Notes under the pieces: model-generated | The model's input: only the letters and a program-made list of their open reading frames with translations | Databases searched by the model: none | What the model was told of the DNA's origin: nothing | Translations under genes and position numbers: made by a program | Part shown: piece after piece, positions 1 through 21,157 of the stretch | Position numbering within the stretch: position 1 is the first letter of the stretch | How the letters are laid out: every line of letters begins with the position of its first letter | Source: Faecousia sp. | Lineage (GTDB): Bacteria > Bacillota > Clostridia > Oscillospirales > Oscillospiraceae | Reading direction: 5' to 3' | Length of the DNA: 64,000 bases | NCBI GenBank assembly: GCA_045596215.1 | Contig: JAZOBY010000070.1 | Location: 636-64,635, forward strand

Positions 1-852
1 CGTCATCAGGAAGGCCAGGCGGATACCCCTGCTCACACATTGGCCGCTACCATTCAGAATCGTTACCCTGCGGTAGCCATCGAGGAGATCTTCGGTGATA
101 TGGCAGCCATGCGTGCCGTTAAGTCTGATGCGGAATTGGAATTGATGCGGAAGGCACAGCACACAACCTGCAATGCCATCATTGCCATGCTCCGCCACGC
201 AAAGCCGGAAATGAACGAAAGCGAACTGGAAGGTGCGTTTGACTTTTCCTTGAAGAAGCAGTGCGTTCGGGATCATGCCTTTACCAGCATCATTGCCGGC
301 GGCAGCCGTGCAACCACGCTGCACTACGACAATAACGATCAGATCGTGCATGACGGCGAGATGGTTTTGATCGACCTTGGTTCTGCTGAGGGTAAATACT
401 GTGCCGATATCTCCCGGACATTCCCCATCAACGGCAAGTTCACCCCGCGTCAGAAGGAGCTGTATAACACAGTTTTGGAGGCACAGCGGATCGTTATTGC
501 CAACGCCAAGCCGGGCATGACCACTATGGAGCTGAACCAAATGGTCATTGATTATTATGAATCCCGTCTGGATGCTTTGGGATTGCGTAAGGATGGAAAA
601 GGTGTTCGCGACTACTATTATCACAATGTTAGCCACAGCCTTGGCCTGGATACCCATGACATTTGCACCATGCGTGAGAGAACCTTGCAGCCCGGTATGG
701 TAATTACCGTCGAACCCGGCCTTTATGTAGAGGAAGAGGGCATCGGCATCCGCATTGAAAACGATGTGCTGATTACCGAGGACGGTGTGATTGATCTGTC
801 TGCAGAAATTCCCAGAACCGTGGAAGAAATTGAAGCCATTATGGCAAAGTAA
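1..852 (+). CDS. pepP: Xaa-Pro aminopeptidase (M24B), 5'-truncated by the window edge
   Basis: Frame is open from base 1; motifs TLHY, DLG..YCADISRTFP, HSLGLDTHD, TVEPGLY, GIRIENDVLIT. Confidence 0.9.
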   Translation, partial: RHQEGQADTPAHTLAATIQNRYPAVAIEEIFGDMAAMRAVKSDAELELMRKAQHTTCNAIIAMLRHAKPEMNESELEGAFDFSLKKQCVRDHAFTSIIAGGSRATTLHYDNNDQIVHDGEMVLIDLGSAEGKYCADISRTFPINGKFTPRQKELYNTVLEAQRIVIANAKPGMTTMELNQMVIDYYESRLDALGLRKDGKGVRDYYYHNVSHSLGLDTHDICTMRERTLQPGMVITVEPGLYVEEEGIGIRIENDVLITEDGVIDLSAEIPRTVEEIEAIMAK

Positions 853-858
853 ATGAAC

Positions 859-882
859 GGCCCTATCCACTTGGATAGGGCC
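859..882. terminator. Hairpin between convergent pepP and the cotJC 3' part
   Basis: GGCCCTATCCA-CT-TGGATAGGGCC perfect inverted repeat. Confidence 0.75.
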
Positions 883-889
883 ACATCTT

Positions 890-1303
890 TTACATATCAA
901 ACGCCGGGTTCAAACAGTACACATTCTTCTGATTGAGTCGCTCACGCAGTTGTTGCAGGCTTTCGCCAAAGCGTTGGAAATGGACGACTTCCCGTTCCCG
1001 GAGGAACTTGATTACGTCGTTTACGTCAGGATCATCGGAAAGTCTTAGAATGTTGTCATAAGTCACTCTCGCTTTTTGCTCTGCGGCCAGATCTTCTGTC
1101 AGATCCGCAATTGGATCACCTTTGACCTGGATGGTTGCTGCAGTCCAGGGGAATCCGGATGCCGCAGTGGGATATACTCCGGTAGTATGGTCTACAAAAT
1201 ACTGCTCCAAGGGCGTATTCTCAATGTCCTTTTCTTTCAAATTACGGGTCAGCTGATGCACGATTGCCGCCACCATTTCCAGGTGGCCCAATTCTTCCGT
1301 GCC
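890..1303 (-). CDS. cotJC: Spore coat manganese catalase CotJC, 3' fragment (residues 62-198 after excision)
   Basis: Reads (G)TEELGHLEMVAAIVHQL...GDPIADLTEDLAAEQKARVTYDNILRLSDDPDV...FLREREVVHFQRFGE, the C-terminal two thirds of CotJC; no convincing start of its own. Confidence 0.93.
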   Translation of the reverse strand, partial: GTEELGHLEMVAAIVHQLTRNLKEKDIENTPLEQYFVDHTTGVYPTAASGFPWTAATIQVKGDPIADLTEDLAAEQKARVTYDNILRLSDDPDVNDVIKFLREREVVHFQRFGESLQQLRERLNQKNVYCLNPAFDM

Positions 1304-1328
1304 TATTGAAGATTAAAAATGGTCATGT
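1278..1328. other. Left recombination junction of the cotJC-intervening element, crossover CC at 1302-1303
   Basis: cotJC similarity stops at 1302-1303; element arm TATTGAAGATTAAAAATGGTCAT is an inverted copy of the arm at 11063-11085. Confidence 0.88.
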
Positions 1329-1334
1329 TATAAT
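1306..1334 (+). promoter_or_regulatory. SigA-type promoter overlapping the left att arm
   Basis: TTGAAG (1306-1311), 17 bp spacer, TG-T-TATAAT (1326-1334). Confidence 0.65.
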
Positions 1335-1345
1335 AACCCAAGAAA

Positions 1346-1377
1346 GGCACTTTCCTACAAGCACTCTGCATACAATA
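1346..1377 (+). promoter_or_regulatory. Putative mother-cell sigE/sigK promoter upstream of the recombinase
   Basis: CATACAATA at 1369-1377 matches the sigE CATACA-T and sigK CATA---TA -10 consensus; GGCACT at 1346-1351 is a weaker -35. Confidence 0.5.
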
Positions 1378-1409
1378 GCAGAGAGGCTTATAGCAAGGTG
1401 GCGTTATAT

Positions 1410-1553
1410 TTGATAGTTAATCCCGAAGCTTTGACTATTACAAAAGCTGAGTGTGATGCGTTACTTAATGAATTCACGCATTACATACGGGATGTTTTTT
1501 CCATTAGAGAAATAAAGGAGGAAGTACGCAGTGGCAAAAACCCAAGTTATTGA
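1410..1553 (+). CDS. 47-aa small ORF overlapping the recombinase start, candidate directionality factor
   Basis: TTG start with AAGGTGG upstream (alternative in-frame GTG at 1398); MIVNPEALTITKAECDALLNEFTHYIRDVFSIREIKEEVRSGKNPSY. Confidence 0.45.
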   Translation: MIVNPEALTITKAECDALLNEFTHYIRDVFSIREIKEEVRSGKNPSY

Positions 1554-3222
1554 ACCAATCAAACGCCTGCTGAAAACAGAAGATGACCAGCCGCGAAATG
1601 TGTGCGCCTACTGCCGCGTTAGTACAGATGAATTCGACCAACGAAATTCACTGGTAGCACAAAAGCAGTTTTTCCAGCGGTATTTCTCACAACACCAAAA
1701 TTGGACAAATATAGGCATTTTTGCAGACGAAGGACTCAGCGGCACATCGCTTGAAAAGCGAGACGAGTTCAACAGGATGCTTGCGCTTGCCCGGTATGGC
1801 GGTGTTGAGATAATACTGACGAAGGAGGTATCCCGTTTCTCACGAAATGTGCAGCATCTGCTAAATATTGTGGAAGAACTCCGGAACAAAGGTGTTTACA
1901 TCTGGTTTTTATCTGATGATATCAACACTGAAAGTAATGACTACCGAGACAAATTAACCGAAGCGGCAACTAATGCTGAAAAAGAAAGCCTGAGAACTTC
2001 CCGCCGTGTGCGTTGGGGACATCAGCAACGTATGCAGCAAGGTGCAGTATTTGGCAGGAAGGAAATGTTCGGCTATAATATCGTTCGTGACAAAGACGGA
2101 ATTCAGCGCTTTGTTATCATTGAGGACGAAGCAGAAATCGTACGCCAGATTTATCAATGGTATGCTTCTGGTGACGGTACATTTACCATTGCAAAGCGGC
2201 TGCAGCAGATGGGCGTGAAAACCAAGCGATACAAAAACGGTTGGAGCAATGTAGTTATTCTACGGCTGTTGCGGAATGAGAAATATGTAGGTGACCTTGC
2301 TCAGGGCAAGACCTATACCCCTGACCCTCTTACCCATAAGAAGAAATATAACCGGGGTGATTCCATTAGCTTCTACATAACCGACCACCATCCAGAGGCA
2401 GCAATCGTCAGCCGTGACCTGTGGGATAAGGTGCAAAAAAGACTGAAAGAAAATGAACCTTCGGACGAGGTCAAAGCAAAGCACTCAAACCGCTACTGGA
2501 CATCCGGTAAGATTTATTGTGGCTGCTGTGGCAATTCCTATATCAGTGTGCGAAAAAAGCAGCAGAACGGCTTGTATAGGGCCTGGGAGTGCATTGAGAA
2601 CCACGAGCGCGGTCTACCGCGTCAGATTGTAAATGACCTGGGGGAAGTTGTTCCGGTCGGTTGCACTGGTAGACGGGTCAACGAGCGCGTTCTGGCAATG
2701 GCTTTGCACGATATTATCACACAGTTGATTATCCCCCATAAGGAGAAAATTTGCGCTACTCTTCGAGAGGACTACGATACGCTAACTAAACCCAAGGATA
2801 ACAGGGCACAAATAACAGCGGTAGAGAAAAAGCTCTCAAAGAGGCGGGAAGATATCGTTTCTCTTACCGATAAGTATATGAGCGGAATTGTTCCGGAGTT
2901 GGCATATACAGCCACTTCCAAGGCGTACCAAGATGAAATCAAGGAATTGGAATTGGACCTTGCGCAACTGAAACAAGAGGGTATCACTGCTGCTATGGAA
3001 GCCAGCGCATACACAGATTACATTGCCCAGATTGAACGCATTGTAGCTCTTTCGGATGAAGAGATAAACGAAGGTCTCTATGAACGAGTCACAAAGAGAA
3101 TCGTTGTACATCCCGAGCAGGTCTTGGAAATCCATCTGTCCTTTATGGCGAAGCCTATCTTTATGCGCTATAAAACGCAGGGCAGGGGAGCAACCTACAC
3201 AGCAATCTTTGAAATCCTGTAA
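1531..3222 (+). CDS. Large serine recombinase (resolvase, recombinase, zinc-ribbon/coiled-coil domains)
   Basis: AYCRVST catalytic Ser, DEGLSGT, TKEVSRFSRN, LRNEKYVG, CGCCG zinc ribbon, C-terminal coiled coil; RBS AAGGAGG. Confidence 0.95.
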   Translation: MAKTQVIEPIKRLLKTEDDQPRNVCAYCRVSTDEFDQRNSLVAQKQFFQRYFSQHQNWTNIGIFADEGLSGTSLEKRDEFNRMLALARYGGVEIILTKEVSRFSRNVQHLLNIVEELRNKGVYIWFLSDDINTESNDYRDKLTEAATNAEKESLRTSRRVRWGHQQRMQQGAVFGRKEMFGYNIVRDKDGIQRFVIIEDEAEIVRQIYQWYASGDGTFTIAKRLQQMGVKTKRYKNGWSNVVILRLLRNEKYVGDLAQGKTYTPDPLTHKKKYNRGDSISFYITDHHPEAAIVSRDLWDKVQKRLKENEPSDEVKAKHSNRYWTSGKIYCGCCGNSYISVRKKQQNGLYRAWECIENHERGLPRQIVNDLGEVVPVGCTGRRVNERVLAMALHDIITQLIIPHKEKICATLREDYDTLTKPKDNRAQITAVEKKLSKRREDIVSLTDKYMSGIVPELAYTATSKAYQDEIKELELDLAQLKQEGITAAMEASAYTDYIAQIERIVALSDEEINEGLYERVTKRIVVHPEQVLEIHLSFMAKPIFMRYKTQGRGATYTAIFEIL

Positions 3223-3228
3223 TACTAA

Positions 3229-3262
3229 AATAAGCCATGTGTGGTTTCACGCATGGCTTATT
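3229..3262. terminator. Bidirectional terminator
   Basis: AATAAGCCATGTGTG-GTTT-CACGCATGGCTTATT between convergent genes. Confidence 0.75.
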
Positions 3263-3614
3263 CTTTTGGATTCGCGGATGAATCTCTTAGATTTTTCATT
3301 GCCTGGACTTGTGCGATTTCATCACGGACATAGTTAAGGAATATCAACAAAAATGTCTCTTCCTCAACACCATTATCAAAGAGTTTTTCCGGGTTTGTAA
3401 TGAGCCTGTTCCGTTCATAGTTGTGCACAAGAACATAGCAATTATAGGTGTACACTAAATAGTATAAAACATCTTCAGGATTTTTGATTTTCTCAATATC
3501 TCGATATTGGCTGGTCGTGATTTTATCAAGCACATAATCAAAGAACTCATTATTTCGAGCATACATATCAGGGCTATTCTTATAAAAGTGTTTCATTTCT
3601 GCATATGAATTCAA
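3258..3614 (-). CDS. Hypothetical protein (118 aa), coupled to the XRE gene
   Basis: TTG start overlaps the xre stop; RBS GAAAGGGTG; AT-rich. Confidence 0.65.
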   Translation of the reverse strand: MNSYAEMKHFYKNSPDMYARNNEFFDYVLDKITTSQYRDIEKIKNPEDVLYYLVYTYNCYVLVHNYERNRLITNPEKLFDNGVEEETFLLIFLNYVRDEIAQVQAMKNLRDSSANPKE

Positions 3615-3898
3615 GGATTATCACCCTTTCTATCTATCGGCTCGATACTGACTTCATCTTTATCCAGCAGGTCGTTGTAAGTTACTCCGAGAGCCTCAGC
3701 AAGGTAGACAATTTCGATATCTGTAACAAATCGTTTGCCGGCTTCAATCCGCTGTACGGCATTTTTATCGATATCCAATCCGCGCAGTTGGAGCAGACCA
3801 GCCAGCTTGTTCTGCGATAGACCGGCTGCTTTACGGTACACGGCGACATTACGCCCACAGACATTGTTATCACCGTTTACGGTCTTGTTAATGAACAT
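3611..3898 (-). CDS. XRE-family HTH transcriptional regulator
   Basis: RKAAGLSQNKLA...AVQRIEAGKR...LAEALGV HTH pattern; ATG at 3898 with GAAAGGTGG RBS. Confidence 0.88.
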   Translation of the reverse strand: MFINKTVNGDNNVCGRNVAVYRKAAGLSQNKLAGLLQLRGLDIDKNAVQRIEAGKRFVTDIEIVYLAEALGVTYNDLLDKDEVSIEPIDRKGDNP

Positions 3899-3934
3899 AA
3901 TTCCGCCACCTTTCGGCATAAATATTCCAGATTT

Positions 3935-4008
3935 ATGACATTCACTACTTGTCATTTTGAATATTGTATGCTAAAATGGTGCAGAGAATGACATTCACTA
4001 AATGTCGT
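3935..4008. promoter_or_regulatory. Two palindromic operators flanking a sigA promoter for the cargo genes
   Basis: ATGACA-ttcactact-TGTCAT (3935-3955) and ATGACA-ttcactaaa-TGTCGT (3988-4008); TTGTCA (3949-3954), 17 bp, TAAAAT (3972-3977) with upstream TG. Confidence 0.75.
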
Positions 4009-4041
4009 CGATTAGAAAAAAATAGAAAGGGACGTTTGTTT

Positions 4042-4668
4042 ATGCCTTACTGTCAGAGCTGTGGTGCAGAAGTAGCTGGCAACTTCTGCCCGAACTGCGG
4101 TGCGCAAGCTGGTTCCGTGCCTCCTGCTGCTCCGCAACTTATCATTCACAAGGATGTGGATGTAAAACCCAGATACAATACCATTTCACTGGCGATTGCT
4201 GGATGGATGGGCTTTGCTTGCTTGATTATGACGCTGGTGTTTTTTATCTATGGTGTCTTAATCGCCGAGGGAACCTTTGGCGACAAGATGGGGTTTGTGA
4301 TTGCTACACTTGTTTGTGCGGGTCTGACCTATCTATGTTATTTGCCTGGTATTAGTACCATCCGCAAGCGTTCCCCTGAGGGAGAGGTGATGTCCACATT
4401 CTGGAGCTTCTTCGGAAAGTCTTTCCTTTTCTTTTTTGCATGGGGCGTTACCATTGCTGGTTGTGTCTATATTATTGGTATCTTTTTCAAGGTTTGGCGT
4501 TTTGGTCTGTGGGCTTCTCGCCCCAATGATGACCAGTACACTGCGTTTGTAGACGGCAAAAAAATCCCGGTTACCAGATATTACGATGACTTGCCTGACT
4601 ACGGAGCAAGAGGTGACTGGGTTTATCGGGACGAAAATGGTGAGTTCTACCGCCCACCTGTCAAATAA
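4042..4668 (+). CDS. Zinc-ribbon membrane protein
   Basis: N-terminal CQSCG...CPNCG, several hydrophobic helices; RBS GAAAGGGA. Confidence 0.8.
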   Translation: MPYCQSCGAEVAGNFCPNCGAQAGSVPPAAPQLIIHKDVDVKPRYNTISLAIAGWMGFACLIMTLVFFIYGVLIAEGTFGDKMGFVIATLVCAGLTYLCYLPGISTIRKRSPEGEVMSTFWSFFGKSFLFFFAWGVTIAGCVYIIGIFFKVWRFGLWASRPNDDQYTAFVDGKKIPVTRYYDDLPDYGARGDWVYRDENGEFYRPPVK

Positions 4669-4685
4669 CAAGGAGGAACAATCGT

Positions 4686-6404
4686 ATGAAAAGACTAATG
4701 AGCATCCTGCTGGCTGTGGTGATGATTATGGCGCTTGCTGTGCCTGCTATGGCTAACGGGGAAACCGAAAGCACAGAACCGAACCTGCTGGCTCATGCCG
4801 GTGATATGACCTACTATGTGGGCGGCTATGGCGCTATGCCTGGTGGTTATCAGTGTATGGTCGACCATACCTATGTGGAAAATTTTGATATTTCCTTCGG
4901 TGACCCCATTATAGAGAACTGGCCCACAGAGGCTGGCACATACACTGTCAATTTCACCAAAACCACCGCAATCAAGGGTGCAGGCGATACGGAATATACA
5001 TTTAATATTTCTATGAACATTACCGTTTTGGAACTGCCTGAGTTGTCCGGTCAGTGCGGCGACACGATGAACTGGAGCTTTGACAAGGATAGTTACACCC
5101 TGACCATTTCCGGCACTGGCGATATGTACACCATTGCCGCAAGTGACGAAGATTTCCAAAACGAAAACTTTAGCTATAAGCCTGGATGGTGGGATTTGCC
5201 TGTTAGGCATATTATAATTGAAGAAGGTGTAGAGAATCTGGCGAACTACACCTTTACGCAAGTCGGAATTTGCACTTACTACCAAATCCTTGAGACCATT
5301 CAGCTCCCAACTACGCTGGAAGCAATTCCCGAATTAGGTTTCCTGATGTCTAATGCTATGACATCCCTGACCATCCCCGAGGGTATCACCTCTATTACCG
5401 GTTGGCCTTTCGGATATCCAGGCAATAGCTTTTTGCCACTGACTGACCTGTATCTGCCCTCCACGCTGACCGAAATGGATATTGTGACGATTATTCTGGC
5501 TGGATATACGAACACACGGCCTATCACACAGACATTGAAGACTATCCACTTCGCAGGCACTGAGGAACAGTGGAAAGCCATTAATCAGATTCGCTCCGAA
5601 ACTATGCAGTCCATTATGCCTGTCGATGATGAAACCTATGCTCTTTACGAAGAAATGTTCAACGGAATTACTGTCGTCTTTGAACCCAAGGAAGATGCAA
5701 AAGAAGAAATCACAGTTGAGAACGGCACCGCTACTGTCCCTGACAGCTCTGTGGAAATCACCGAGGGCAAAGATGTTGTTATCGATGTGACCGATACCGA
5801 GGAGAAGGTCAGCAGCGTGGTCATCGGCTTTGAGACCGTAGACAAGATTGCCGATGCCGAGACCGCTGTGGAAATCAAACTGCCAGATGCCACTGTCAGT
5901 TTTGACAAGACCGCTATCGGCTCCATTGGTACACAGGCCGGAGAAACCGCCGTTACCATCGTAGCCAAGGAGGTCGAGGATACCACCCTGACTACCGAGC
6001 AGAAAGCTGCTCTGGAGGAAAAGGAAGTCTGCGCCATTCTGAATCTGGAAGCATTTGCCGGCGAGACCAAAATCACCGAGTTTGGCGGCGGCAAGGTCAC
6101 GGTCTCCGTACCCTTTACACTGCCTGAGGGTAAGGCTGGCACAGACTACTATGTCGCCTATGTGGCCGATGATGGCACCATCACCGCTATGCCTACCACC
6201 TATGCTGACGGTATTCTATCCTTCGAGACTACCCACTTCTCCAGCTATGTGGTACTGGAAAACAAGACTGTCACACCGGAACCCACACCTGACCCCAGTA
6301 ACCCCCAGACGGGCGACAATAGTATGCTGTTCCTGTGGGTCACTGTGATGCTTCTCAGTGCTGCCGGACTAACTGTCTGCCTTACCAAACGTCGTGCTTT
6401 CTAA
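4686..6404 (+). CDS. Sortase-anchored surface protein with BspA-like leucine-rich repeats
   Basis: Signal peptide; LETIQLPTTLEAI and LTIPEGITSI repeats; C-terminal NPQTG, hydrophobic helix, KRR tail. Confidence 0.85.
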   Translation: MKRLMSILLAVVMIMALAVPAMANGETESTEPNLLAHAGDMTYYVGGYGAMPGGYQCMVDHTYVENFDISFGDPIIENWPTEAGTYTVNFTKTTAIKGAGDTEYTFNISMNITVLELPELSGQCGDTMNWSFDKDSYTLTISGTGDMYTIAASDEDFQNENFSYKPGWWDLPVRHIIIEEGVENLANYTFTQVGICTYYQILETIQLPTTLEAIPELGFLMSNAMTSLTIPEGITSITGWPFGYPGNSFLPLTDLYLPSTLTEMDIVTIILAGYTNTRPITQTLKTIHFAGTEEQWKAINQIRSETMQSIMPVDDETYALYEEMFNGITVVFEPKEDAKEEITVENGTATVPDSSVEITEGKDVVIDVTDTEEKVSSVVIGFETVDKIADAETAVEIKLPDATVSFDKTAIGSIGTQAGETAVTIVAKEVEDTTLTTEQKAALEEKEVCAILNLEAFAGETKITEFGGGKVTVSVPFTLPEGKAGTDYYVAYVADDGTITAMPTTYADGILSFETTHFSSYVVLENKTVTPEPTPDPSNPQTGDNSMLFLWVTVMLLSAAGLTVCLTKRRAF

Positions 6405-6424
6405 GTTGATAAGCCCATAAAAAT

Positions 6425-6465
6425 AGTGAGCGAGTTGCGTTAATGCGTGACCCGCTCACTTTTCT
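6425..6465 (+). terminator. Rho-independent terminator
   Basis: AGTGAGCG...CGCTCACT stem followed by T-rich tract. Confidence 0.7.
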
Positions 6466-6721
6466 ATATGGGATTCCAAACATCAGATATGTGATATAAA
6501 TGGAAATATATACACCGGTGGTCGTTACTGCGGTATCCCGCCAAATGCTGACGGCAAGCACAATGGTGGGTTACAAAATATAGTAAGTTATCTTCGATAT
6601 ATTAATCAGGGGTCCGAGGCCGCCGCGCCCGTATATACTCAATAGAGGTATCTAAAATTATATATAAATGAAGTCCTCTCTGTCATTGTAATGGAAAGAC
6701 AATAACAAGGAGGCTTAATTT

Positions 6722-8452
6722 ATGTCTTATTATGCTGACTATTTAGCAGCAAAATGCGAGGAAGGTTGGGGCCAGGAAACCGACTGGATGGACTTCTATT
6801 GCAGCATCTTCGATGGCGGTCTTCCATACGGGAGCAAGAAATTTGCCAAGGACACCTATCTGGCAATCCTGCTCACCGTGGGCCCCAAGAAAAACGAAAT
6901 CCGGAAGCGGTTGGTGGATGAGGATTTATTTCCCCTGCAATCGGTGATTGCCAACCCCAGGGAAGGAACCACCAGCTTTATCAGTCCCATTACCTATGCA
7001 GGTAATTCCAAGAGCATCAAAAACGCCCGGTTCATGTTTGCTATGTGCATCGAGGTAGACGACCTGTTGGAGGAAACTGCTGAGGATGGAACAATCCGAT
7101 TCACTGGGCTGGAACACTTGATTGGAGAATGGGAGCGAGGGGTAATTCCAAAGCCAACCTATATCGTATCCTCCGGTAACGGTATCCACCTATACTATCA
7201 GTTCGTGGAAAAGCTCCCCATGTATACTCCGAACGAGCGTAAATTCATGAATATGCGCCGTGAATTGAGTCCTATGCTTTGGAATGCCGGATTGTCCACA
7301 AGCAAGGTACAGATTCAATCCACGGTACAGGGCTATCGGGTAGTTGGCTCTATCACTAAAAGCGGAAAAATCTGCCGGGCTTTTAAGGTTGGAGAACGGG
7401 TTACTCTGGAATACTTAAACGGATTTCTTTCTGAGGAAAACCGGGCGACTGACCTCCAATGGGGTCCAAAGCATTGCAGCCGGGATTATGCCCAAAAGCA
7501 TTATCCAGAATGGTGGGCTTCACAGCAAGAGAAGAAGAAAAAGCGGAAAGAGGAAGGACCGCCCCACTACATTGTCAGCCGCGCCGTGTATGACAATTGG
7601 AAGAATCGCATCGAAGCGGAAGTAGAGGTTGGGCATCGAGCCGGGTGTATGATGACGCTGGCAATCTATGCCTTAAAATGTGGCATCACCGAAGACGAGT
7701 TAATCCGGGATATTGAGTATTTTTCAGAATACTTTGATTCCCTGACCATAGACGAAAATAATCATTTTACTCTTGAGGAAGGAATGGCTGCTCTCAAATA
7801 TTACCGCAATCCCGAGTATTACACTTACCCCAACACCAGTATTTCTTACCGTTCCGGCATAGAGATTGTTCCCACCGAGAGGAATTTCCGTTCAAGGGAG
7901 GACCATCTTAAAATGTGTCGGGAGCGTGCTGCAGCTAAGACTTCCAAAAGGGACGCGGTCCGGGAATGGCGACTGGCTAACCCTGAGGGAAGAAAGTCTG
8001 ATTGCGTGCGCGCAACAAGCATTTCCAAGCGCACCGTGGATAAGTGGTGGGACATTTGTCTCGACAAGCGCAAGAAGGCACCTAAGCGTAAGCTGGTCAA
8101 AACCAAATGGTGCGACTGCTGTGGGAAGGAACAGCCCTTTGAACGCGGCACCGGAGTTCACTTTAACTCCTATAATCAGCACGCATACGAAGATGTAATT
8201 TTCAAGTGTGCGGTCTGCGGTCAGGTAGTAGGTAAATACGGAAAGAAGCACTACCGAACCTTTGATTCAGACCTTGAGTATCTGCGTTGGTACGAACTGC
8301 AGTACAAGCAAGGCTTTGGCTTAGATGGTCGCCTTCGGGAGGATTACAAACACGAACACCAAGAGGATGTGTGGTCGGTAGTGGATAACGGATATATTCC
8401 GCCCGATGTGGTTGAAGCATTGATTAAGAAGTACGGAGGACAGCAACAATGA
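6722..8452 (+). CDS. Primase-like replication initiator (Rep) with C-terminal HTH and Cys4 motif
   Basis: IEVDDL and PTYIVSSGNGIHLYY motifs of AEP-like plasmid Rep proteins; HTH-like RKSDCVRATSISKRTVDKWW; CDCCG...CAVCG. Confidence 0.7.
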   Translation: MSYYADYLAAKCEEGWGQETDWMDFYCSIFDGGLPYGSKKFAKDTYLAILLTVGPKKNEIRKRLVDEDLFPLQSVIANPREGTTSFISPITYAGNSKSIKNARFMFAMCIEVDDLLEETAEDGTIRFTGLEHLIGEWERGVIPKPTYIVSSGNGIHLYYQFVEKLPMYTPNERKFMNMRRELSPMLWNAGLSTSKVQIQSTVQGYRVVGSITKSGKICRAFKVGERVTLEYLNGFLSEENRATDLQWGPKHCSRDYAQKHYPEWWASQQEKKKKRKEEGPPHYIVSRAVYDNWKNRIEAEVEVGHRAGCMMTLAIYALKCGITEDELIRDIEYFSEYFDSLTIDENNHFTLEEGMAALKYYRNPEYYTYPNTSISYRSGIEIVPTERNFRSREDHLKMCRERAAAKTSKRDAVREWRLANPEGRKSDCVRATSISKRTVDKWWDICLDKRKKAPKRKLVKTKWCDCCGKEQPFERGTGVHFNSYNQHAYEDVIFKCAVCGQVVGKYGKKHYRTFDSDLEYLRWYELQYKQGFGLDGRLREDYKHEHQEDVWSVVDNGYIPPDVVEALIKKYGGQQQ

Positions 8453-8697
8453 CAATTACAAGTGTTGTAGCAGATACCGGGCGTTTCTCCAACCAGTTTG
8501 GACGGATTCATTATTTAATACGATTGGTGGATGGGCAGATTATATACTGCCCAAATGCCAAGAAGGTCGATAATGCCGTCGTTGGAGGATGCGGTGCTCT
8601 GAAGGGAAAGACCGTCCGAATTGAGACGGTTCCGCATCCGAAATATCCCAAACTGGTGGACCTCTGCATCGTTAGTGCAGAACGCCCCACCGCGTAG
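8449..8697 (+). CDS. Hypothetical protein (82 aa)
   Basis: ATGA overlap with the rep stop; RBS GGAGGA. Confidence 0.65.
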   Translation: MTITSVVADTGRFSNQFGRIHYLIRLVDGQIIYCPNAKKVDNAVVGGCGALKGKTVRIETVPHPKYPKLVDLCIVSAERPTA

Positions 8698-8710
8698 GTG
8701 GCCTTCGGAG

Positions 8711-8751
8711 AACTCCGCTTCCGCGACTTCGCGGAAGTATACGGAGTTATA
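8711..8751 (+). other. Candidate MOBV-type oriT
   Basis: Nested inverted repeat AACTCCG-CTTCCGCGA-CT-TCGCGGAAG-TATA-CGGAGTT with AAGTATA-N5-TTATA, directly upstream of the relaxase. Confidence 0.55.
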
Positions 8752-8828
8752 AACGCGTCTAACGCCAAGTTATCCGTATTCCTCCCGTGTCATTATTAGG
8801 GTGACTACTTTTTAAGGAGGAAATCACC

Positions 8829-9869
8829 ATGACAAACAAAGTTCGAGCAACCATGCACAACGGCAGGGGTCGAAACTCCGTTGGCTTCAAAGTCCGGCAC
8901 AATGATAGGGATTTTGACACCACCCATGCCGAGCATATCAATCCAGCGCCCAACCGAAAGAACAGGTATTTCATCATGGAGGCGGACGGCACGGTGAACA
9001 ATCGCCCACAAATCTCCTTTGAAACACACGAGAAAAGAATGTATAACCACCTTTTCTACGAGACCCTGAGTAAACAGGCTGAACGGCATATCAAGTCCGG
9101 TCATCGCGAACGCATCCGAACACCTGACCAATACCGTACCGCCATTCGCACCTGCCCTGAAGAGACTATTCTAATGCTCGGCACGCGAGAAAAGCACGCC
9201 GACTCGCAGGCTTTTATCAAAGCGGTCAATTTGTGGTGCCAGCAAATGAAGGCTGCCTACGGAACCCACTGGCGGCTCTTGGACGGAGCTCTACATTTTG
9301 ACGAGTCCACACCACACTGTCATATCAGGGCGGTCTGGACGGCAGAGGGCAAGGATGGTCTACAAGTCTCTGAGAATCAGGCACTGAGGGCACTGGGTAT
9401 CCAACGCCCCAACTTGGAGCAACCGGAGGGTAGGCACAACTGCCCAAAACAGACTTTTACACAGCAAGCCCGTGAAATCTGGATAACTGCCGCACGGGAG
9501 TACGGCATTGAGATTGAGGACATCCCTGAAATGCCTGGAAAAGTGACACGTACCAAGGAAGAGTACATCGCTCAAAAAGTCCGCAAGGAGATTGTGAAGC
9601 TGTCCGAGCAACGCGACCAAATCCGCGCTGAAGCCTCTCAGGCCGATTCTGAGCGGACCGCTCTTCGAGAAGAGGTTGCGGACTTGCAGAAGACTAAGGG
9701 GCGCTTAGAAGCGGCCGTGGCGCGTTTAAGAAAGATGCTGCAGCCTATTCAAAAGCTGTTTGAACGCTTGGCGACATACCACATCACCCCTGACCGAACA
9801 GTACTTGACGACATCCTGTCGGATGCAAAAACAACCCGCGCAATCCAATCACTGGATGCCCGGGCATAA
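8829..9869 (+). CDS. MobV/Pre-family relaxase (plasmid recombination enzyme)
   Basis: HNDR motif, HFDESTPHCH motif, C-terminal coiled coil; RBS AAGGAGG. Confidence 0.88.
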   Translation: MTNKVRATMHNGRGRNSVGFKVRHNDRDFDTTHAEHINPAPNRKNRYFIMEADGTVNNRPQISFETHEKRMYNHLFYETLSKQAERHIKSGHRERIRTPDQYRTAIRTCPEETILMLGTREKHADSQAFIKAVNLWCQQMKAAYGTHWRLLDGALHFDESTPHCHIRAVWTAEGKDGLQVSENQALRALGIQRPNLEQPEGRHNCPKQTFTQQAREIWITAAREYGIEIEDIPEMPGKVTRTKEEYIAQKVRKEIVKLSEQRDQIRAEASQADSERTALREEVADLQKTKGRLEAAVARLRKMLQPIQKLFERLATYHITPDRTVLDDILSDAKTTRAIQSLDARA

Positions 9870-9891
9870 TACCGCTTTGGAGGAAAATACT

Positions 9892-10158
9892 ATGAGTAAA
9901 TCAATTGACAGAAAGCCTACACTTGAGGAATGCCTGACACTCTGGAAACAGAAGGGCGAACTCACCACAGAGATTGAGGACTTAAAACTTGAGCAAGTCG
10001 GTTTGCGAGCCTCAGTAGATTATCTGCGACATGCTGAGCATAGACTACGGGTCAGTATCGCCAATCTCTGCTATGATATGTCCAATATCTTTAAGATTGC
10101 CGGGACTCTGGCAGACACAGAGCAAACGGGCACTTGGCAGAATCTACCCAAACCTTGA
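9892..10158 (+). CDS. Small coiled-coil protein (88 aa)
   Basis: ATG with GGAGG RBS; heptad pattern resembling the Mob C-terminus. Confidence 0.65.
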   Translation: MSKSIDRKPTLEECLTLWKQKGELTTEIEDLKLEQVGLRASVDYLRHAEHRLRVSIANLCYDMSNIFKIAGTLADTEQTGTWQNLPKP

Positions 10159-10337
10159 GGTCTTTTTCGGCCAGTTTGTCTTTATGAGATTGGTAGGCAG
10201 GGATACTACCATAGGCGCAGGTGCTGAGGCACGGACAGTACAACACCAGCGTCAACCGTGTTTTGATATTTGGTCTACTAATTGCGGTACTACCGCATGC
10301 TCTTGTCGGCATATCAATACCTTCCGTGCCAACTTAT

Positions 10338-10384
10338 ACCGTGGTGGGGTTTACCTTTCTCCCTCACCACGGTTTTTCTTTTTT
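10338..10384 (+). terminator. Terminator after the rep-mob module
   Basis: ACCGTGGTG...CACCACGGT followed by long T tract. Confidence 0.7.
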
Positions 10385-10471
10385 ACGCACACCCTTGCGC
10401 TGTCATTGTTAGATTGTAACCGTGGCACTGCCATGTAACATATAAATCTATGAATAGAGGAGAAACACAAA

Positions 10472-10921
10472 ATGGACAATCAATTTATCGAAGAACCTAA
10501 ATGTTTAACGGAGCGCTTTGTGGAAGCACTCAGTCTGGAAACCCAAACCGGAGAAATAAGGTGGCGATTTAAGGAAGGCTACGGAACTCCGGCAAAATGC
10601 ATATGTGAGGGGAGGGAACTGACAATCGTACCCGACTATTCCGACCCCGAGCAAGACGGCTACACCCTTTATAGTGCAGCCATAGACGGTACGGACTCCT
10701 GTATGCTTATGAGCGCGAAAGGGGTCCCGGCAATGCCTAACAGGCTGCGAAATCTGTACGAAGATATAGTGGAAGCCTCAAAAGAGAATCCCGAGCCTGC
10801 ATTAGCGCATATGGAGAGCTTTGTAAAGAAGTCTGCAGAAAAGCAATGCTTGTACTCTATCATAGATGCAATCAAGTTGCTCCACCGCACCATAACCACC
10901 AATCTGAAAGATGTATACTAA
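10472..10921 (+). CDS. Hypothetical protein (149 aa)
   Basis: ATG with GAGGAG RBS; no recognised motif. Confidence 0.7.
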   Translation: MDNQFIEEPKCLTERFVEALSLETQTGEIRWRFKEGYGTPAKCICEGRELTIVPDYSDPEQDGYTLYSAAIDGTDSCMLMSAKGVPAMPNRLRNLYEDIVEASKENPEPALAHMESFVKKSAEKQCLYSIIDAIKLLHRTITTNLKDVY

Positions 10922-11008
10922 CGCTACATACAGTCCTGCTTTTTCTTATTCTTTCTTTGTGGTAGGTCTGTGACATAAAACGCCGGTATTTCCGGTTACT
11001 CCTGTTAA

Positions 11009-11060
11009 CCCCCATACGCTGAATCTTTCTCCTTTCAGTTCAGCGTGTGGGGGCTTTTCT
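11009..11060. terminator. Hairpin just inside the right end of the element
   Basis: CCCCCATACGCTGAA...TTCAGCGTGTGGGGG then CTTTTCT. Confidence 0.7.
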
Positions 11061-11061
11061 A

Positions 11062-11110
11062 AATGCCCAAAATTAATCTTCTATACCGATATCTGTCAGC
11101 AGACCCTTTT
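11062..11110. other. Right recombination junction, crossover CC at 11086-11087
   Basis: cotJC 5' part ends at the GG of Gly62; element arm (minus strand) TATAGAAGATTAATTTTGGGCAT. Confidence 0.88.
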
Positions 11111-11270
11111 GGTCATCAAAGGGCATGGAGTATCTTTGGGCAAGATACCGCATGGATGCAGCCAACTCACCATCCGGCCCGCCGAACTGACTGATGATAA
11201 TGGATGCCAAACGGGGATTGGGGCGGGCGATCTTTACGGGATACTGCAACTTCTTGTCATATACAAACAT
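11073..11270 (-). CDS. cotJC: CotJC 5' fragment (residues 1-62 plus element-encoded IED and stop)
   Basis: MFVYDKKLQYPVKI...SQFGGPDGELAASMRYLAQRY...GLLTDIG is the CotJC N-terminus; follows cotJB. Confidence 0.93.
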   Translation of the reverse strand: MFVYDKKLQYPVKIARPNPRLASIIISQFGGPDGELAASMRYLAQRYSMPFDDQKGLLTDIGIED

Positions 11271-11273
11271 ACC

Positions 11274-11708
11274 TTAACCCTCCTTATTGGCTGCGTATTC
11301 CCAGGGCCACGGATCATCCAACCAACGATACCGCTCTCCCTGTACAGGCAGTCCGTGCTTCAAGGGGCGTTCTTCGTTAAACTCCATCATGCCCTTGTGA
11401 TAGATCTGTTGATACTTCCGGTACAACTCCAATGCCTCCGTGTCATGTGGATGCGTATCCAGGTAAAGGGCCAGCTCCTGGATCATAAAGGCAAGGGTTT
11501 GCAATTCCGTTTTGGGTGTAATGGGCTGTTCCTGTTGATTGACCATTCCCATAAAAGGCAGATCCAGTCCAGGGAACAGCGTACCACGAATCAGGGCTTT
11601 TCGCGGTTCGTACTGGGGCGGGCATTCCAGTTGAAAGGGAACGTAGGGATTTGCCAGCGGTGCCATCGCCGGCAGACGGCCCTCTGTGCCGTTGTTTTTC
11701 CGATTCAC
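11274..11708 (-). CDS. cotJB: Fused spore coat protein CotJA-CotJB
   Basis: LANPYVPFQ...ALIRGTLFPGL (CotJA) then ELALYLDTHP...WLDDPWPWE (CotJB); likely GTG start at 11708 after AGGAGG. Confidence 0.88.
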   Translation of the reverse strand: MNRKNNGTEGRLPAMAPLANPYVPFQLECPPQYEPRKALIRGTLFPGLDLPFMGMVNQQEQPITPKTELQTLAFMIQELALYLDTHPHDTEALELYRKYQQIYHKGMMEFNEERPLKHGLPVQGERYRWLDDPWPWEYAANKEG

Positions 11709-11827
11709 ATTCATTCCTCCTATCATAATTCAGTTGGAACTGTCGTTCCTGGTCATACTATGACTGTTCCTGCGGAAAAGTTCTGTGACAGGGGAGGAGG
11801 GCATAGAAATAAGCAGAGGTGATGACC

Positions 11828-18945: not shown

Positions 18946-19362
18946 TTACCGATATGCCTTTTTCCGTTTTACTTTAAATTGGCCATTCTTTGCGGGCAGA
19001 AACGCAACAATTGCAGATCCCACCAGGATTACGACTGCACTTACGCCCATCTCCTGATACTGGCCGCCGAAAAACAGTGCTGTTGTGCCTATCAGAGCAA
19101 GATAATATATAACGCCGCTTAGCATACAAACTTGCAGCCGGAGACGTTTGGTCAGCATTGCACTGATGGTCGCACCGGCAACAGCCGCAATAGTAAGTAT
19201 AATGAGTGCGGCGTAGCTGATACTCCCCTGCCCTATCTTCTCGGAGGATATCAACCATGCACAGACTGCTGCACCAAGAACCGAAACAATCAGACTCACA
19301 CTGACCCCTATGGCCAATCCAAGTGGAATGCCCATCGTTTTGCCGGAGGTTTTCATTTTCAA
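18946..19362 (-). CDS. Four-helix membrane protein (TIGR04086-like)
   Basis: Four hydrophobic segments, basic C-terminus; TTG start after AAAGGAG. Confidence 0.65.
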   Translation of the reverse strand: MKMKTSGKTMGIPLGLAIGVSVSLIVSVLGAAVCAWLISSEKIGQGSISYAALIILTIAAVAGATISAMLTKRLRLQVCMLSGVIYYLALIGTTALFFGGQYQEMGVSAVVILVGSAIVAFLPAKNGQFKVKRKKAYR

Positions 19363-19409
19363 ATTCGCCAACTCCTTTCTTTTGTACAAGGTATTCCGTC
19401 CGTGACACA

Positions 19410-19448
19410 AAAAGAACCGGTGCACCCCAAAAGGTGTACCGGTTCTTA
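19410..19448 (-). terminator. Terminator after pgm
   Basis: AAGAACCGGTGCACC...GGTGTACCGGTTCTT. Confidence 0.7.
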
Positions 19449-19456
19449 ATAAAGCC

Positions 19457-21157
19457 TTATTGTGACATCTGCTCAATCATGCGATCCAGCAACGCTTTGC
19501 TGTCTGCTTTTGTTTTTCCGACTGCGGTGTAATAGAATTTCACCTTCGGCTCTGTGCCGGAGGGGCGGGCGATTACGCTGCCCTGCTGGCCAAGGATCAG
19601 TTCCAGCATATTGGATTTCGGCAAGTGAATCTCCGCCTGCTTGCCTGTCTCCAAATCACGGGAGATTCCAGATTGATAGTCATTCACCATGGTGACGGCC
19701 GCACCGCCGATGGCTTGTGGCACATCATTTCTCAGACCCGCCATCATCGCGGCAGCCTTTTCCATGGCATCCGCACCGGTCAGTTCGATGCTTTGCACAT
19801 GTGCCAGATAGTAACCATGGGTGGCATAAAGATCGTCCAAGGCGTCCAGGATGGTCTTTCCGTCCCGCTTCAGTGCAGCGGCCATTTCGCAAACCAACAT
19901 GGATGCAACAACGGCATCCTTGTCCCGGGCATAAGTGCCTTTCAGATAACCGCAGCTTTCTTCAAAGCCAAAGACGAATTTATTCTCCTCGCCCAATTCT
20001 TCAAGACGAAGGATTTCGCCACCGATATACTTGAAACCGGTAAGCACGGTCTTCATCTGAACACCGTAGCTTGCTGCGATCCGATCCGCCAATGGAGAAG
20101 AAACAAGGGAACGAATCACTTCTGCACCCACAGGAAGATCCTTTCTTGCAGTACGGGCTTTCAAAATATAATCCATCAGCAGGCAGCCCAATTCATTGCC
20201 GGACAGCTTCACAAATCCGTTACCGCTGGGCACAGCAATGGCCACGCGGTCTGCATCCGGATCCGTACCAAGAATCAGATCGCAGGGCACGCTCTGAGCA
20301 ACCTTGTAGCTCTCGTTCAGAGCCGCATCCGTTTCCGGGTTGGGATACTCGCAGGTCTTGAAATCCCCGTCAGGATACTCCTGACAGGCCACAACCGCAA
20401 CATTGGCACCCAGCCGTCCCAGAATCTCCCGGACCGGAATATTTCCGGTGCCGCACAAGGGTGTATAAACCACGTTTAGATTCCCTTGCCGAATCATTTC
20501 CGGCTCGATGGATTCGGCCAGAACGGTTTGGTAATACTTCTCCCACAAATCCTGACCAATATAGCTGATCAGACCATCCTTCATAAATTCCTCAAAGGAT
20601 TTACTTTCCGAAATGAAATAATCGATGGCAGAAATCTTCTGCGTAACGATCTTAGCGGGTTCGTCGGTCATTTGACAACCGTCCGGGCCGTAACACTTAA
20701 TGCCGTTGTAGGCACCGGCGTTATGGCTGGCAGAGATCACAATGCCGCAACCGCAGCCCAACTGCCGTACTGCAAAAGAAAGCATGGGCGTGGGTGCCAG
20801 CTTGTCGTAAAGCCATGTCTTGATCCCGGCCTCTGCCAAAGCGACTGCACAAATCTCAGCAAAAAGCTGGGAGTTGTGACGGGAATCGTAACCGATGGCA
20901 GCAATCTTCGGCAGATCTGTACCGGAGAGCCAGGCTGCCATACCCTGTGCCGCTCTGCGAACGGTGTAGCGGTTTAAACGGTTACTTCCCATTCCCATAA
21001 TGCCACGCATACCGGCTGTGCCGAATTGCAGATCGCTGCCGAAACGGCTCTTCAATTCTTCTGTATCATTTGAAATGGCCAGCAGTTCCCCCTTGGCATC
21101 TTCGGGCAAATCCGCATTGCACCAGAACTGATAACGATCCATAAATGTCATGTTCAT
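19457..21157 (-). CDS. pgm: Phosphoglucomutase/phosphomannomutase
   Basis: FGTAGMRG, SASHN, DPDADR, FEESCG, RPSGTEPK. Confidence 0.93.
   Translation of the reverse strand: MNMTFMDRYQFWCNADLPEDAKGELLAISNDTEELKSRFGSDLQFGTAGMRGIMGMGSNRLNRYTVRRAAQGMAAWLSGTDLPKIAAIGYDSRHNSQLFAEICAVALAEAGIKTWLYDKLAPTPMLSFAVRQLGCGCGIVISASHNAGAYNGIKCYGPDGCQMTDEPAKIVTQKISAIDYFISESKSFEEFMKDGLISYIGQDLWEKYYQTVLAESIEPEMIRQGNLNVVYTPLCGTGNIPVREILGRLGANVAVVACQEYPDGDFKTCEYPNPETDAALNESYKVAQSVPCDLILGTDPDADRVAIAVPSGNGFVKLSGNELGCLLMDYILKARTARKDLPVGAEVIRSLVSSPLADRIAASYGVQMKTVLTGFKYIGGEILRLEELGEENKFVFGFEESCGYLKGTYARDKDAVVASMLVCEMAAALKRDGKTILDALDDLYATHGYYLAHVQSIELTGADAMEKAAAMMAGLRNDVPQAIGGAAVTMVNDYQSGISRDLETGKQAEIHLPKSNMLELILGQQGSVIARPSGTEPKVKFYYTAVGKTKADSKALLDRMIEQMSQ

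What the first reader, a model, noticed from the sequence alone, without database searches (positions are those of the whole stretch)
1278..1328. Complete attP/attB pair can be read off, including the 5-bp motif shift typical of serine integrases
Seen: the two element arms read from the core are TATTGAAGATTAAAAATGGTCAT (1304-1326) and TATAGAAGATTAATTTTGGGCAT (11085-11063); 12 of the first 13 bases match, plus an outer TGGnCAT. The cotJC 3' arm CACGGAAGAATTGGGC shares GAAGA at positions 5-9, and its TTGGGC lies at 11-16 versus 16-21 in the element arm. Known: the zinc-ribbon-domain binding motif is offset 5 bp between attB and attP half-sites in large serine recombinases. Inference: this is a specific integrase target in the most conserved codons of cotJC, and a ready-made recombinase/att set to test.
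Basis: partly seen in the sequence, partly recalled or inferred. Interest (0 to 1): 0.72.

Follow-up and report, generated by a model that had tools for sequence, protein, structure and literature searches.

The report
Integrase attachment sites splitting cotJC
A 9.8-kb mobile element carrying a large serine integrase sits inside the spore-coat gene cotJC, and its attachment sites can be read to the base; this is a known and common kind of insertion, and the claimed 5-bp motif shift is only partly borne out.

Summary
Window 1304-11085 is a 9,782-bp element inside cotJC. Its two ends are an 18/23 inverted repeat around a 2-bp core (GG on the cotJC strand). Removing 9,784 bp in silico gives a gapless 198-aa CotJC.

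Comparative support:
- Nine same-genus genomes carry the uninterrupted site.
- 14 elements with related integrases (59-99% identical), including this window, sit at the same GG.
- At least 13 more elements with other end sequences sit there too.
- Four family members lie in the opposite orientation, with the core flipped relative to the integrase gene. This fits a central dinucleotide that alone sets polarity.

The "5-bp shift" is only partly supported:
- The inner GAAGA match is in register and recurs across the family.
- The outer motif matches only the 3' (B') arm. The 5' arm shows nothing above chance.
- In this window 5 bp fits slightly better than 4 bp. Across the family, and in three other hosts of the same attP, 4 bp fits best. 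A 4-bp shift was seen by cryo-EM for SPbeta integrase.

Added here: a conserved 118-aa helical protein is the only other gene shared by all family members, and is a candidate directionality factor with weak support. This scan has already reported cotJC-splitting serine-recombinase elements in 60 or more genomes. Verdict: a new member of a known kind.

The parts
890..1303 (-). cotJC 3' half (codons G-T-E-E-L-G-H to the stop), ending at the crossover core
   Evidence: Pfam Mn_catalase E=1.1e-28. The in-silico join gives a 198-aa CotJC that aligns without gaps to an intact orthologue, 174/198 identical.
1279..1301 (-). B' half-site of attB (the cotJC 3' arm), now part of attR
   Evidence: Matches the element arms in register at 7.0/12 inner positions (p=0.007). 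The outer motif is offset by 4-5 bp.
1302..1303 (.). Central crossover dinucleotide: CC on the + strand, GG on the cotJC strand. A second copy lies at 11086-11087.
   Evidence: These are the only letters shared by attL and attR. The same dinucleotide is the junction in all related and unrelated insertions examined. Metagenome contigs of the empty site break at 11086.
1304..1326 (+). Integrase-proximal attP arm. It also holds a sigma-70-like promoter: -35 at 1306-1311, extended -10 at 1326-1334.
   Evidence: 18/23 inverted repeat with 11063-11085. The arm and promoter are conserved in all 14 family members.
1398..1553 (+). 51-aa ORF: a truncated copy of the conserved small protein that precedes the integrase gene in other family members
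   Evidence: 37.5% identity over 48 aa to the full-length ORFs of L019 and L022; alignment.
1531..3222 (+). Large serine recombinase (integrase), 563 aa
   Evidence: Pfam Resolvase, Recombinase and Zn_ribbon_recom, all above their cut-offs. S31 and C330/C333/C354/C378 are invariant. pN/pS is 0.074 against a 96%-identical copy. The closest full-length solved relative is SPbeta integrase, 9dxh.
3258..3614 (-). 118-aa all-helical protein of an unnamed family; candidate recombination directionality factor
   Evidence: It is the only gene besides the integrase shared by all family elements. 99 unnamed homologues were found, none with a Pfam family. The fold model is confident (pLDDT 88.7) with no PDB match. 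The complex prediction with integrase residues 315-563 gave weak support: 0.55 against a best control of 0.06.
3611..3955 (-). XRE-type helix-turn-helix regulator, upstream of the 118-aa gene on the same strand
   Evidence: Pfam HTH_31 and HTH_3; PHROG transcriptional repressor families.
8829..9869 (+). Weak MobV/Mob_Pre-like relaxase, which suggests a mobilizable element
   Evidence: Pfam Mob_Pre E=4.3e-5 and NCBIfam MobV E=6.9e-6, both below their curated cut-offs.
11063..11085 (-). Integrase-distal attP arm
   Evidence: Inverted repeat partner of 1304-1326. Conserved in L020, L022, L021, L019, L026 and L015.
11088..11110 (+). B half-site of attB (the cotJC 5' arm, read outward from the core), now part of attL
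   Evidence: Contiguous with the 3' arm in nine intact orthologues. It shows no likeness to the element arms above chance.
11086..11270 (-). cotJC 5' half (M1 to the Gly codon at the core)
   Evidence: Pfam Mn_catalase E=1e-21. A fused cotJA-cotJB gene lies upstream at 11274-11726.

Best explanation
Window 1304-11085 is a small integrative, probably mobilizable, element. Its large serine recombinase (1531-3222) inserted it into cotJC by recombination between a roughly 50-bp quasi-palindromic attP and an attB inside the codons D-I-G-T-E-E-L-G-H. Cutting and rejoining took place at a 2-bp GG core.

Shown:
- The exact junctions and the 2-bp core.
- The intact target in relatives.
- Repeated independent use of the same dinucleotide.
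- Both insertion orientations, depending on which way the core points relative to the integrase gene.
- An intact integrase under purifying selection, with recent transfer between species.

Inferred:
- The inner parts of the element arms (positions 2-10, containing GAAG) and of the cotJC 3' arm are read in the same register by the recombinase domain.
- The zinc-ribbon domain reads an outer motif (TGGnCAT-like at positions 17-23 in attP) that lies 4 bp, possibly 5 bp, closer to the centre on the 3' arm of attB (GGnCAY at 14-19).
- The 5' arm of attB is a weak, sequence-dissimilar half-site.
- Excision would need a directionality factor. The best candidate is the conserved 118-aa protein at 3258-3614.

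Whether excision is timed to sporulation, as for skin and SPbeta, is not shown.
For: - Domains: Resolvase, Recombinase and Zn_ribbon_recom. The catalytic Ser31 and four zinc-ribbon Cys are invariant across 9 homologues.
- Junctions share only GG, and the arms match 18/23.
- Nine intact same-genus orthologues read straight through the site.
- In-silico excision gives a gapless 198-aa CotJC.
- Nine of 9 integrase relatives found in GTDB genomes, plus G012, G262, G073 and G102, sit at the same GG.
- Distant integrases (35-37% identical) in G007 and G025, and 13 further same-genus genomes (11 with other arm families), also sit there.
- Four family members are inverted, with the core flipped relative to the integrase gene.
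- Integrase genes are 91.5-99% identical at the nucleotide level between species whose cotJC is only 72-74% identical, and pN/pS is 0.074.
- Offset profile: inner identity 0.56 at offset 0; outer identity 0.54 at 4 bp and 0.33 at 5 bp.
- Published zinc-ribbon motif positions are 16-24 in attP, shifted 5 bp in attB for LI and phiC31 integrases and 4 bp for SPbeta integrase (PMC3783163).
- Empty-site contigs in one metagenome break exactly at 11086.
- The small protein is co-conserved with the integrase.
- Complex prediction, weak support: score 0.55, best control 0.06. The mark was reached by 58 of 80 solved complexes and 2 of 110 mismatched pairs, but at 0.60 or under by only 7 of the 80 and by both mismatches. 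Runs agree in at least 82% of contacts, and partner pLDDT is at least 83.
Against: - No recombination product was observed. No attP circle junction was found in four laid runs, in metagenome contigs or in viral contigs.
- The 5' half-site has no detectable motif.
- A weight matrix from the element arms ranks the true 3' half-site only about 20,000th of 3.5 million genome positions at any offset. Arm likeness therefore explains little of the specificity.
- The attB arms are coding sequence and the element arms are related by descent, so the offset statistics rest on few independent comparisons.
- The proximal arm is also a promoter, which constrains its sequence.
- The integrase fold model is of low confidence (pLDDT 51).
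- The directionality-factor assignment has only weak computational support.
Confidence: 0.85

Rival explanations
1. One reading: the zinc-ribbon motif is TTGGGC, and it lies exactly 5 bp closer to the core in attB than in attP, as in the LI and phiC31 integrases.
For: In this window the distal arm and the 3' arm share TTGGGC at 16-21 and 11-16. The 5-bp offset scores 5.0/8 against 4.5/8 for 4 bp, with p=0.016 if 5 bp is fixed beforehand. A 5-bp shift is the published rule for LI and phiC31 integrases.
Against: - The proximal arm matches only 3 of the 6 letters.
- Near-identical arms in three other host species fit 4 bp clearly better: 6.0, 5.0 and 5.5 of 8, against 3, 4 and 3.
- The family-wide profile peaks at 4 bp.
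- The most conserved outer letters of the element arms (G18, A22, T23) line up with invariant G14, A18 and Y19 of the 3' arm only at 4 bp.
- TTGGGC is not conserved among hosts that carry the same element (TTAGGG, TTGGGT, TTAGGA).
- SPbeta integrase, the closest full-length solved relative, uses 4 bp.
Confidence: 0.25
2. The outer-motif likeness between the element arms and the cotJC 3' arm is not functional. It reflects chance, the Leu-Gly/Ala-His codons and the promoter embedded in the arm. Specificity comes from features not visible as simple sequence identity.
For: - If the offset is not fixed beforehand, the window's outer match has p=0.16.
- The 5' arm shows nothing.
- The weight-matrix scan does not enrich the true site when the outer motif is added at any offset.
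- Hosts with Leu-Gly-His and Leu-Ala-His codons are both used by elements with the same arm types.
Against: - The peak at 4-5 bp is the only one in the offset profile, and it falls where the structural model predicts (PMC3783163).
- The best pairs reach 7/8 (L020, L021).
- The joint inner-plus-outer probability is 1e-3 to 1e-4.
Confidence: 0.25
3. The element is a plain integrative mobilizable element that uses cotJC only as a conserved landing pad. It is not excised as part of sporulation, and carriers simply lack CotJC unless the element leaves.
For: - The integrase promoter in the att arm is sigma-70-like, not sporulation-type.
- The cargo includes a weak MobV-like relaxase and no phage genes.
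- Nucleotide identities indicate recent transfer between species.
- No excised form was seen.
Against: - All characterised elements of this layout in mother-cell genes (skin, SPbeta, the gerE element) are excised in the mother cell (PMC5595907; PMC5025042).
- About one same-genus species in eight carries an insertion at this GG, which would be costly if the gene were simply lost.
- The only two CATACAAT motifs in the 64-kb window (sigma-E -10-like) lie upstream of the two copies of the small-protein gene. This is a post hoc observation.
- The genome encodes Spo0A.
Confidence: 0.4
4. The copy in this window is a fixed remnant that can no longer recombine.
For: The small-protein gene upstream of the integrase gene is truncated to 51 aa. 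No excision product was observed.
Against: The integrase gene is intact and under strong purifying selection (pN/pS 0.074). Both arms are intact and identical to those of a sister element. A full-length copy of the small-protein gene is present at 3258-3614. Near-identical elements have entered several species.
Confidence: 0.08

Closest known systems
SPbeta prophage in spsM of Bacillus subtilis (integrase SprA/YokA with directionality factor SprB/YotN)
   Same: A large serine integrase splits a mother-cell sporulation gene. The sites are a quasi-palindromic attP and a coding attB with a 2-bp core. It is the closest full-length solved relative by sequence (9dxh). Cryo-EM shows its second DNA-binding domain 4 bp closer to the centre on attB (PMC11722253), which is the offset the family data favour here.
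   Different: SPbeta is a 134-kb functional phage, whereas this is a 9.8-kb element without phage genes. The sequence match to YokA is weak (E = 1.6e-8). The candidate directionality factor matched nothing in the PDB by fold search. Sporulation control is not shown here.
skin elements in sigK (B. subtilis SpoIVCA; C. difficile CD1231 with the directionality factor CD1234)
   Same: A prophage-like or reduced element carrying a large serine recombinase interrupts a sporulation gene, and precise excision rebuilds the gene. In C. difficile a small directionality factor gives the cell-type control (PMC5025042).
   Different: The target gene is a coat protein, not a sigma factor. The element looks mobilizable and recently transferred. 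No excision data exist.
Reported cotJC-intervening elements (Abe et al. 2013, as cited in bioRxiv 10.1101/2021.11.22.469490; Laceyella sacchari in bioRxiv 10.1101/2022.02.25.481979)
   Same: The target gene is the same and the element class is the same. This scan has also logged cotJC-splitting serine-recombinase elements in 60 or more genomes.
   Different: Those reports concern Bacilli and give no base-resolved att analysis in the papers held here. This element is in an uncultured gut genus of Oscillospirales: close relatives are labelled Faecousia.
Listeria innocua (A118-type) integrase attP/attB model
   Same: The conserved outer motif of the element arms here lies at 16-23.
   Different: The shift is 5 bp there and is visible on both attB half-sites. 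Here it is best fitted by 4 bp and is visible on one half-site only.

Membership tests
Large serine recombinase (serine integrase) att system | N-terminal resolvase-type catalytic domain with a nucleophilic serine | tested here: met
   PF00239 E=1.2e-28. Ser31 in the invariant YCRVSTD motif across 9 homologues. The catalytic domain is homologous to solved serine recombinases.
Large serine recombinase (serine integrase) att system | Recombinase domain plus a zinc-ribbon domain with an inserted coiled coil | tested here: met
   PF07508 E=1.9e-23 and PF13408 at 28.3 bits (cut-off 25.3). Four Cys are invariant. Long paired helices at 425-505 flanked by beta strands appear in the fold model, but the model as a whole is of low confidence (pLDDT 51), so the coiled coil is only indicated.
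Large serine recombinase (serine integrase) att system | Exchange at a 2-bp non-palindromic central dinucleotide that alone sets polarity, with no longer duplication | tested here: met
   Only GG is shared by attL and attR. Family members with the core flipped relative to the integrase gene are inserted in the opposite orientation. This is sequence evidence; no strand-cleavage assay was done.
Large serine recombinase (serine integrase) att system | attP is an imperfect inverted repeat of about 50 bp | tested here: met
   The arms match 18/23. Arm conservation across 14 elements extends to positions 23-24.
Large serine recombinase (serine integrase) att system | attB half-sites carry the outer (zinc-ribbon) motif 4-5 bp closer to the centre than attP half-sites | tested here: inconclusive
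   On the 3' arm there is a peak at 4 bp (0.54) and 5 bp (0.33). The 5' arm is at chance. The genome scan does not single out the site.
Large serine recombinase (serine integrase) att system | A separate directionality factor is required for attL x attR excision | not testable with these tools
   There is only a candidate: the co-conserved 118-aa protein, with weak complex support of 0.55 against a best control of 0.06.
Sporulation-gene intervening element (skin/SPbeta type) | The element interrupts a mother-cell-expressed sporulation gene, and precise excision restores the reading frame | tested here: met
   The cotJC halves have Pfam Mn_catalase hits and cotJA-cotJB lies upstream. The in-silico join is gapless. 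Mother-cell expression of cotJ is established knowledge from B. subtilis and was not tested here.
Sporulation-gene intervening element (skin/SPbeta type) | Excision occurs during sporulation, under a sporulation sigma factor | not testable with these tools
   There are only hints: CATACAAT motifs upstream of both copies of the small-protein gene and the presence of Spo0A. No excised form was seen.

The most novel reading that the evidence does not exclude
The family is a natural set of cotJC-targeting serine integrases that, like SPbeta integrase, place the zinc-ribbon domain 4 bp rather than 5 bp inward on attB. They recognise essentially one strong half-site. They have switched insertion orientation in nature by flipping the central dinucleotide. 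They use a previously unnamed 110-130-aa all-helical protein as a new class of directionality factor, possibly expressed from sporulation promoters.
Probability: 0.25. Interest if true: 0.55.

Novelty: new member of a known kind. Interest (0 to 1): 0.33.

Why it matters
Serine integrases with defined attP/attB pairs are used as genome-engineering tools. This locus gives an intact enzyme, base-resolved sites, and natural variants of the same sites in several hosts and in both orientations. A small panel of assays could therefore test core polarity, half-site asymmetry and the 4-versus-5-bp geometry. Biologically, it adds to the evidence that cotJC is a crowded landing site in gut Clostridia, with about one species in eight of this genus hit at this one dinucleotide. 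The phenomenon itself is already described, both in the literature and repeatedly in this scan.

Tried and rejected
- Weight-matrix scan of the whole genome. I combined the inner motif with the outer motif at offsets 0-9, using a matrix built from the element arms. The true 3' half-site ranked about 19,000-35,000 of 3.5 million even at the best offsets, no better than the inner motif alone. The method does not discriminate.
- Exact and degenerate attP-junction patterns gave 0 hits in metagenome contigs (2 scans) and in viral contigs (2 scans). This is not evidence of absence.
- Laying contigs of four metagenome runs on 500-11800 showed no circle junction and no same-strain empty site. A 'joint' 1096->11295 in one run has a 26-letter side at 90% likeness, and I take it as cross-species similarity. 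Contigs that end at 1302 and 11087 fit an assembly-graph branch at the core, but do not prove excision.
I used the genome search instead.
- The Atlas look-up of the 118-aa protein gave no usable hit. Foldseek of its confident model against the PDB gave no match at E<=0.001.
- The AlphaFold model of the integrase from 9 sequences had pLDDT 51. I did not use it for fold search.
- Considered and rejected: crossover at the neighbouring TA, which would break the reading frame. Any longer shared core is also excluded, because the flanking letters differ between attL and attR.
- Considered and rejected: strict covariation between the host Gly/Ala codon and positions 19-20 of the element arms. L015, L019 and L022 break it.

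Full report
**What is there.** On the minus strand, the window carries a fused cotJA-cotJB gene (11274-11726) followed by cotJC in two pieces. The pieces are a 5' half (11270 down to the core at 11087-11086) and a 3' half (1303 down to 890). Both have strong Mn_catalase Pfam hits. Between them lie 9,782 bp (1304-11085). At the left end of this stretch is a 563-aa protein with the Resolvase, Recombinase and Zn_ribbon_recom domains, all above their Pfam cut-offs. Ser31 and four zinc-ribbon cysteines are invariant among nine homologues. The rest of the element encodes:
- an XRE-type regulator;
- several proteins with no family;
- a weak MobV-like relaxase.

There are no phage genes.

**The observation.** The quoted 23-mers are at the quoted coordinates. 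They match at 18 of 23 positions, and at 12 of the first 13. The two junctions share only two letters: CC on the + strand, GG on the cotJC strand. The letters on either side differ between attL and attR, so the exchange is confined to those 2 bp, as expected for a serine recombinase. Removing 9,784 bp in silico gives a 198-aa CotJC that aligns without a gap to an intact orthologue, 174/198 identical.

**Comparative proof of the sites.**
- Nine other species of the same genus read straight through the site (D-I-G-T-E-E-L-G-H), which gives attB directly.
- A peptide-pattern scan of GTDB genomes found nine loci with integrases 59-99% identical to this one, labelled Faecousia, Flemingiibacterium, Acutalibacteraceae and Clostridia MAGs. 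All nine are inside cotJC at the same GG.
- Four more family members came from whole-genome searches: G012, G262, G073 and G102.
- Integrases only 35-37% identical also sit at this GG, in G007 and G025.
- Among 200 same-genus species, 129 had a full-length match to the 3' half. Of these, 18 had a shortened upstream frame. I read 15 not already examined, and 13 are insertions at exactly this GG. With G000, G012 and G007 that makes 16. They represent at least five different end-sequence families, and several of these again show GAAG at positions 5-8.
- In one metagenome, two contigs of the empty site from a related organism depart from the window exactly at 11086.

**Orientation.** In ten family members, including the window, the integrase-proximal arm is joined to the cotJC 3' half. 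In four (G012, G262, G073, G102), the same arm, with its promoter and integrase gene, is joined to the 5' half. Relative to the integrase gene the core therefore reads CC in one set and GG in the other, and the element sits in the opposite orientation. This is what is expected if the central dinucleotide alone sets polarity. It independently supports GG as the crossover.

**Is the element alive?** Integrase genes in other Faecousia species are 91.5-99% identical to this one at the nucleotide level, while the adjoining cotJC halves are only 72-74% identical. Against the 96%-identical copy, pN/pS is 0.074. So the element has moved between species recently, and its integrase is under strong constraint. 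No excised form was found: there was no circle junction in four laid runs or in the metagenome and viral contig collections.

**The 5-bp claim.** The published model is as follows:
- The recombinase-domain motif is in the same register in attP and attB.
- The zinc-ribbon motif lies at positions 16-24 of attP half-sites.
- In attB that motif is 5 bp closer to the centre for the LI and phiC31 integrases.

For SPbeta integrase, cryo-EM shows 4 bp, and its authors call it an outlier.

Here the conserved outer motif of the element arms lies at 16-23, as expected. I compared all element arms with their own cotJC arms at offsets from -2 to 9, averaging over six integrase clades.

| Comparison with the 3' arm | Offset | Mean identity |
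|---|---|---|
| Inner positions 1-12 | 0 | 0.56 |
| Inner positions 1-12 | all others | 0.09-0.40 |
| Outer positions 16-23 | 4 bp | 0.54 |
| Outer positions 16-23 | 5 bp | 0.33 |
| Outer positions 16-23 | all others | 0.27 or less |

In the window itself 5 bp is slightly better than 4 bp (5.0 against 4.5 of 8). Near-identical arms in three other hosts favour 4 bp (6.0, 5.0 and 5.5 of 8, against 3, 4 and 3). At 4 bp, the most conserved outer letters of the element arms line up with invariant letters of the Gly/Ala-His codons.

Against random genome 30-mers:
- The window's inner match has p=0.007.
- Its 5-bp outer match has p=0.016 if the offset is fixed beforehand, and p=0.16 if it is not.
- The 5' arm of attB is at chance for both the inner and the outer motif.

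A weight matrix from the element arms does not pick out the true site in the genome at any offset. My conclusion is that an inward-shifted outer motif on one half-site is plausible and is where theory puts it. The offset is more likely 4 bp than 5 bp, the statistics are modest, and attB is strongly asymmetric.

**How excision might be controlled.** Comparing gene content among eight elements shows only one gene besides the integrase that is shared by all family members. It encodes a protein of about 105-118 aa. In most elements this gene lies between the arm promoter and the integrase gene. In the window the upstream copy is truncated to 51 aa (1398-1553). A full-length copy lies at 3258-3614 on the other strand, behind the XRE gene.
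- The family has 99 unnamed homologues and no Pfam domain.
- Outside the window's own genome, it was found in only three of 400 genomes sampled from the order. Each time it sat next to a family integrase in cotJC.
- It folds confidently as a helical bundle (pLDDT 88.7) with no PDB match.
- A complex prediction with integrase residues 315-563 gave weak support: 0.55 against a best control of 0.06. The mark was reached by 58 of 80 solved complexes and 2 of 110 mismatched pairs, but at 0.60 or under by only 7 of the 80 and by both mismatches. Runs agree in at least 82% of contacts, and partner pLDDT is at least 83.

I treat it as a candidate directionality factor, not an established one.

The integrase-proximal arm also contains a sigma-70-type promoter (-35, a 17-bp spacer, an extended -10) that is conserved in all family members. 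The only two CATACAAT motifs in the window lie upstream of the two copies of the small-protein gene. The genome encodes Spo0A. Sporulation-timed excision is therefore possible but untested.

**What is known already.** cotJC has been named as an insertion locus for such elements. The general class (skin, SPbeta, the gerE element) is well characterised. This scan has already logged cotJC-splitting serine-recombinase elements in at least 60 genomes, including the finding that they land at one two-base spot. The present locus is a well-resolved new member. It adds the 4-bp reading, the natural orientation flip and the co-conserved small protein.

Noticed in passing
L017 (G019) 860-900 and 5390-5410; L030 (G031); L029 (G021, contig end): There is a second insertion hot spot in cotJC, about 75 codons downstream, at the L-A-A-E codons. 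G019 has a roughly 4.5-kb insert there flanked by a 12-bp direct repeat and carrying another serine-recombinase-like gene. G031 and G021 break at the same codons. In the genus survey, more than a dozen further species show 3'-half matches that start near residue 67-68.
   Followed up: partly
window 1306-1334: A sigma-70-like promoter (-35 at 1306-1311, 17-bp spacer, extended -10 at 1326-1334) lies inside and just beyond the integrase-proximal att arm. It is conserved in all 14 family members. Integrase bound to this arm would sit on its own promoter.
   Followed up: partly
window 1369-1376 (+) and 3963-3970 (-): The only two CATACAAT motifs (sigma-E -10-like) in the 64-kb window both lie in the element. 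One is upstream of the truncated copy of the small-protein gene. The other is upstream of the XRE gene and the full-length copy. The total count equals the chance expectation; only the positions are suggestive.
   Followed up: partly
window 11274-11726 (-): cotJA and cotJB are fused into one 150-aa open frame: Pfam CotJA matches at residues 23-58 and CotJB at 74-143.
   Followed up: no
L038-L052 (same-genus genomes): At least five unrelated end-sequence families are inserted at the same GG. Several have GAAG at positions 5-8 of the arm next to the 3' half, as this family does. This suggests convergent mimicry of the inner half-site.
   Followed up: partly
window 11073-11087 (-) and the equivalent junction in L015: In both insertion orientations the truncated cotJC 5' half runs into an in-frame TAA three codons into the element arm (…D-I-G-I-E-D-stop), because both arms contain GAAGATTAA.
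   Followed up: no
G000 contig C85:2236-3642: The same genome has a second large serine recombinase, 31% identical to this one, on another contig. Its context was not examined.
   Followed up: no
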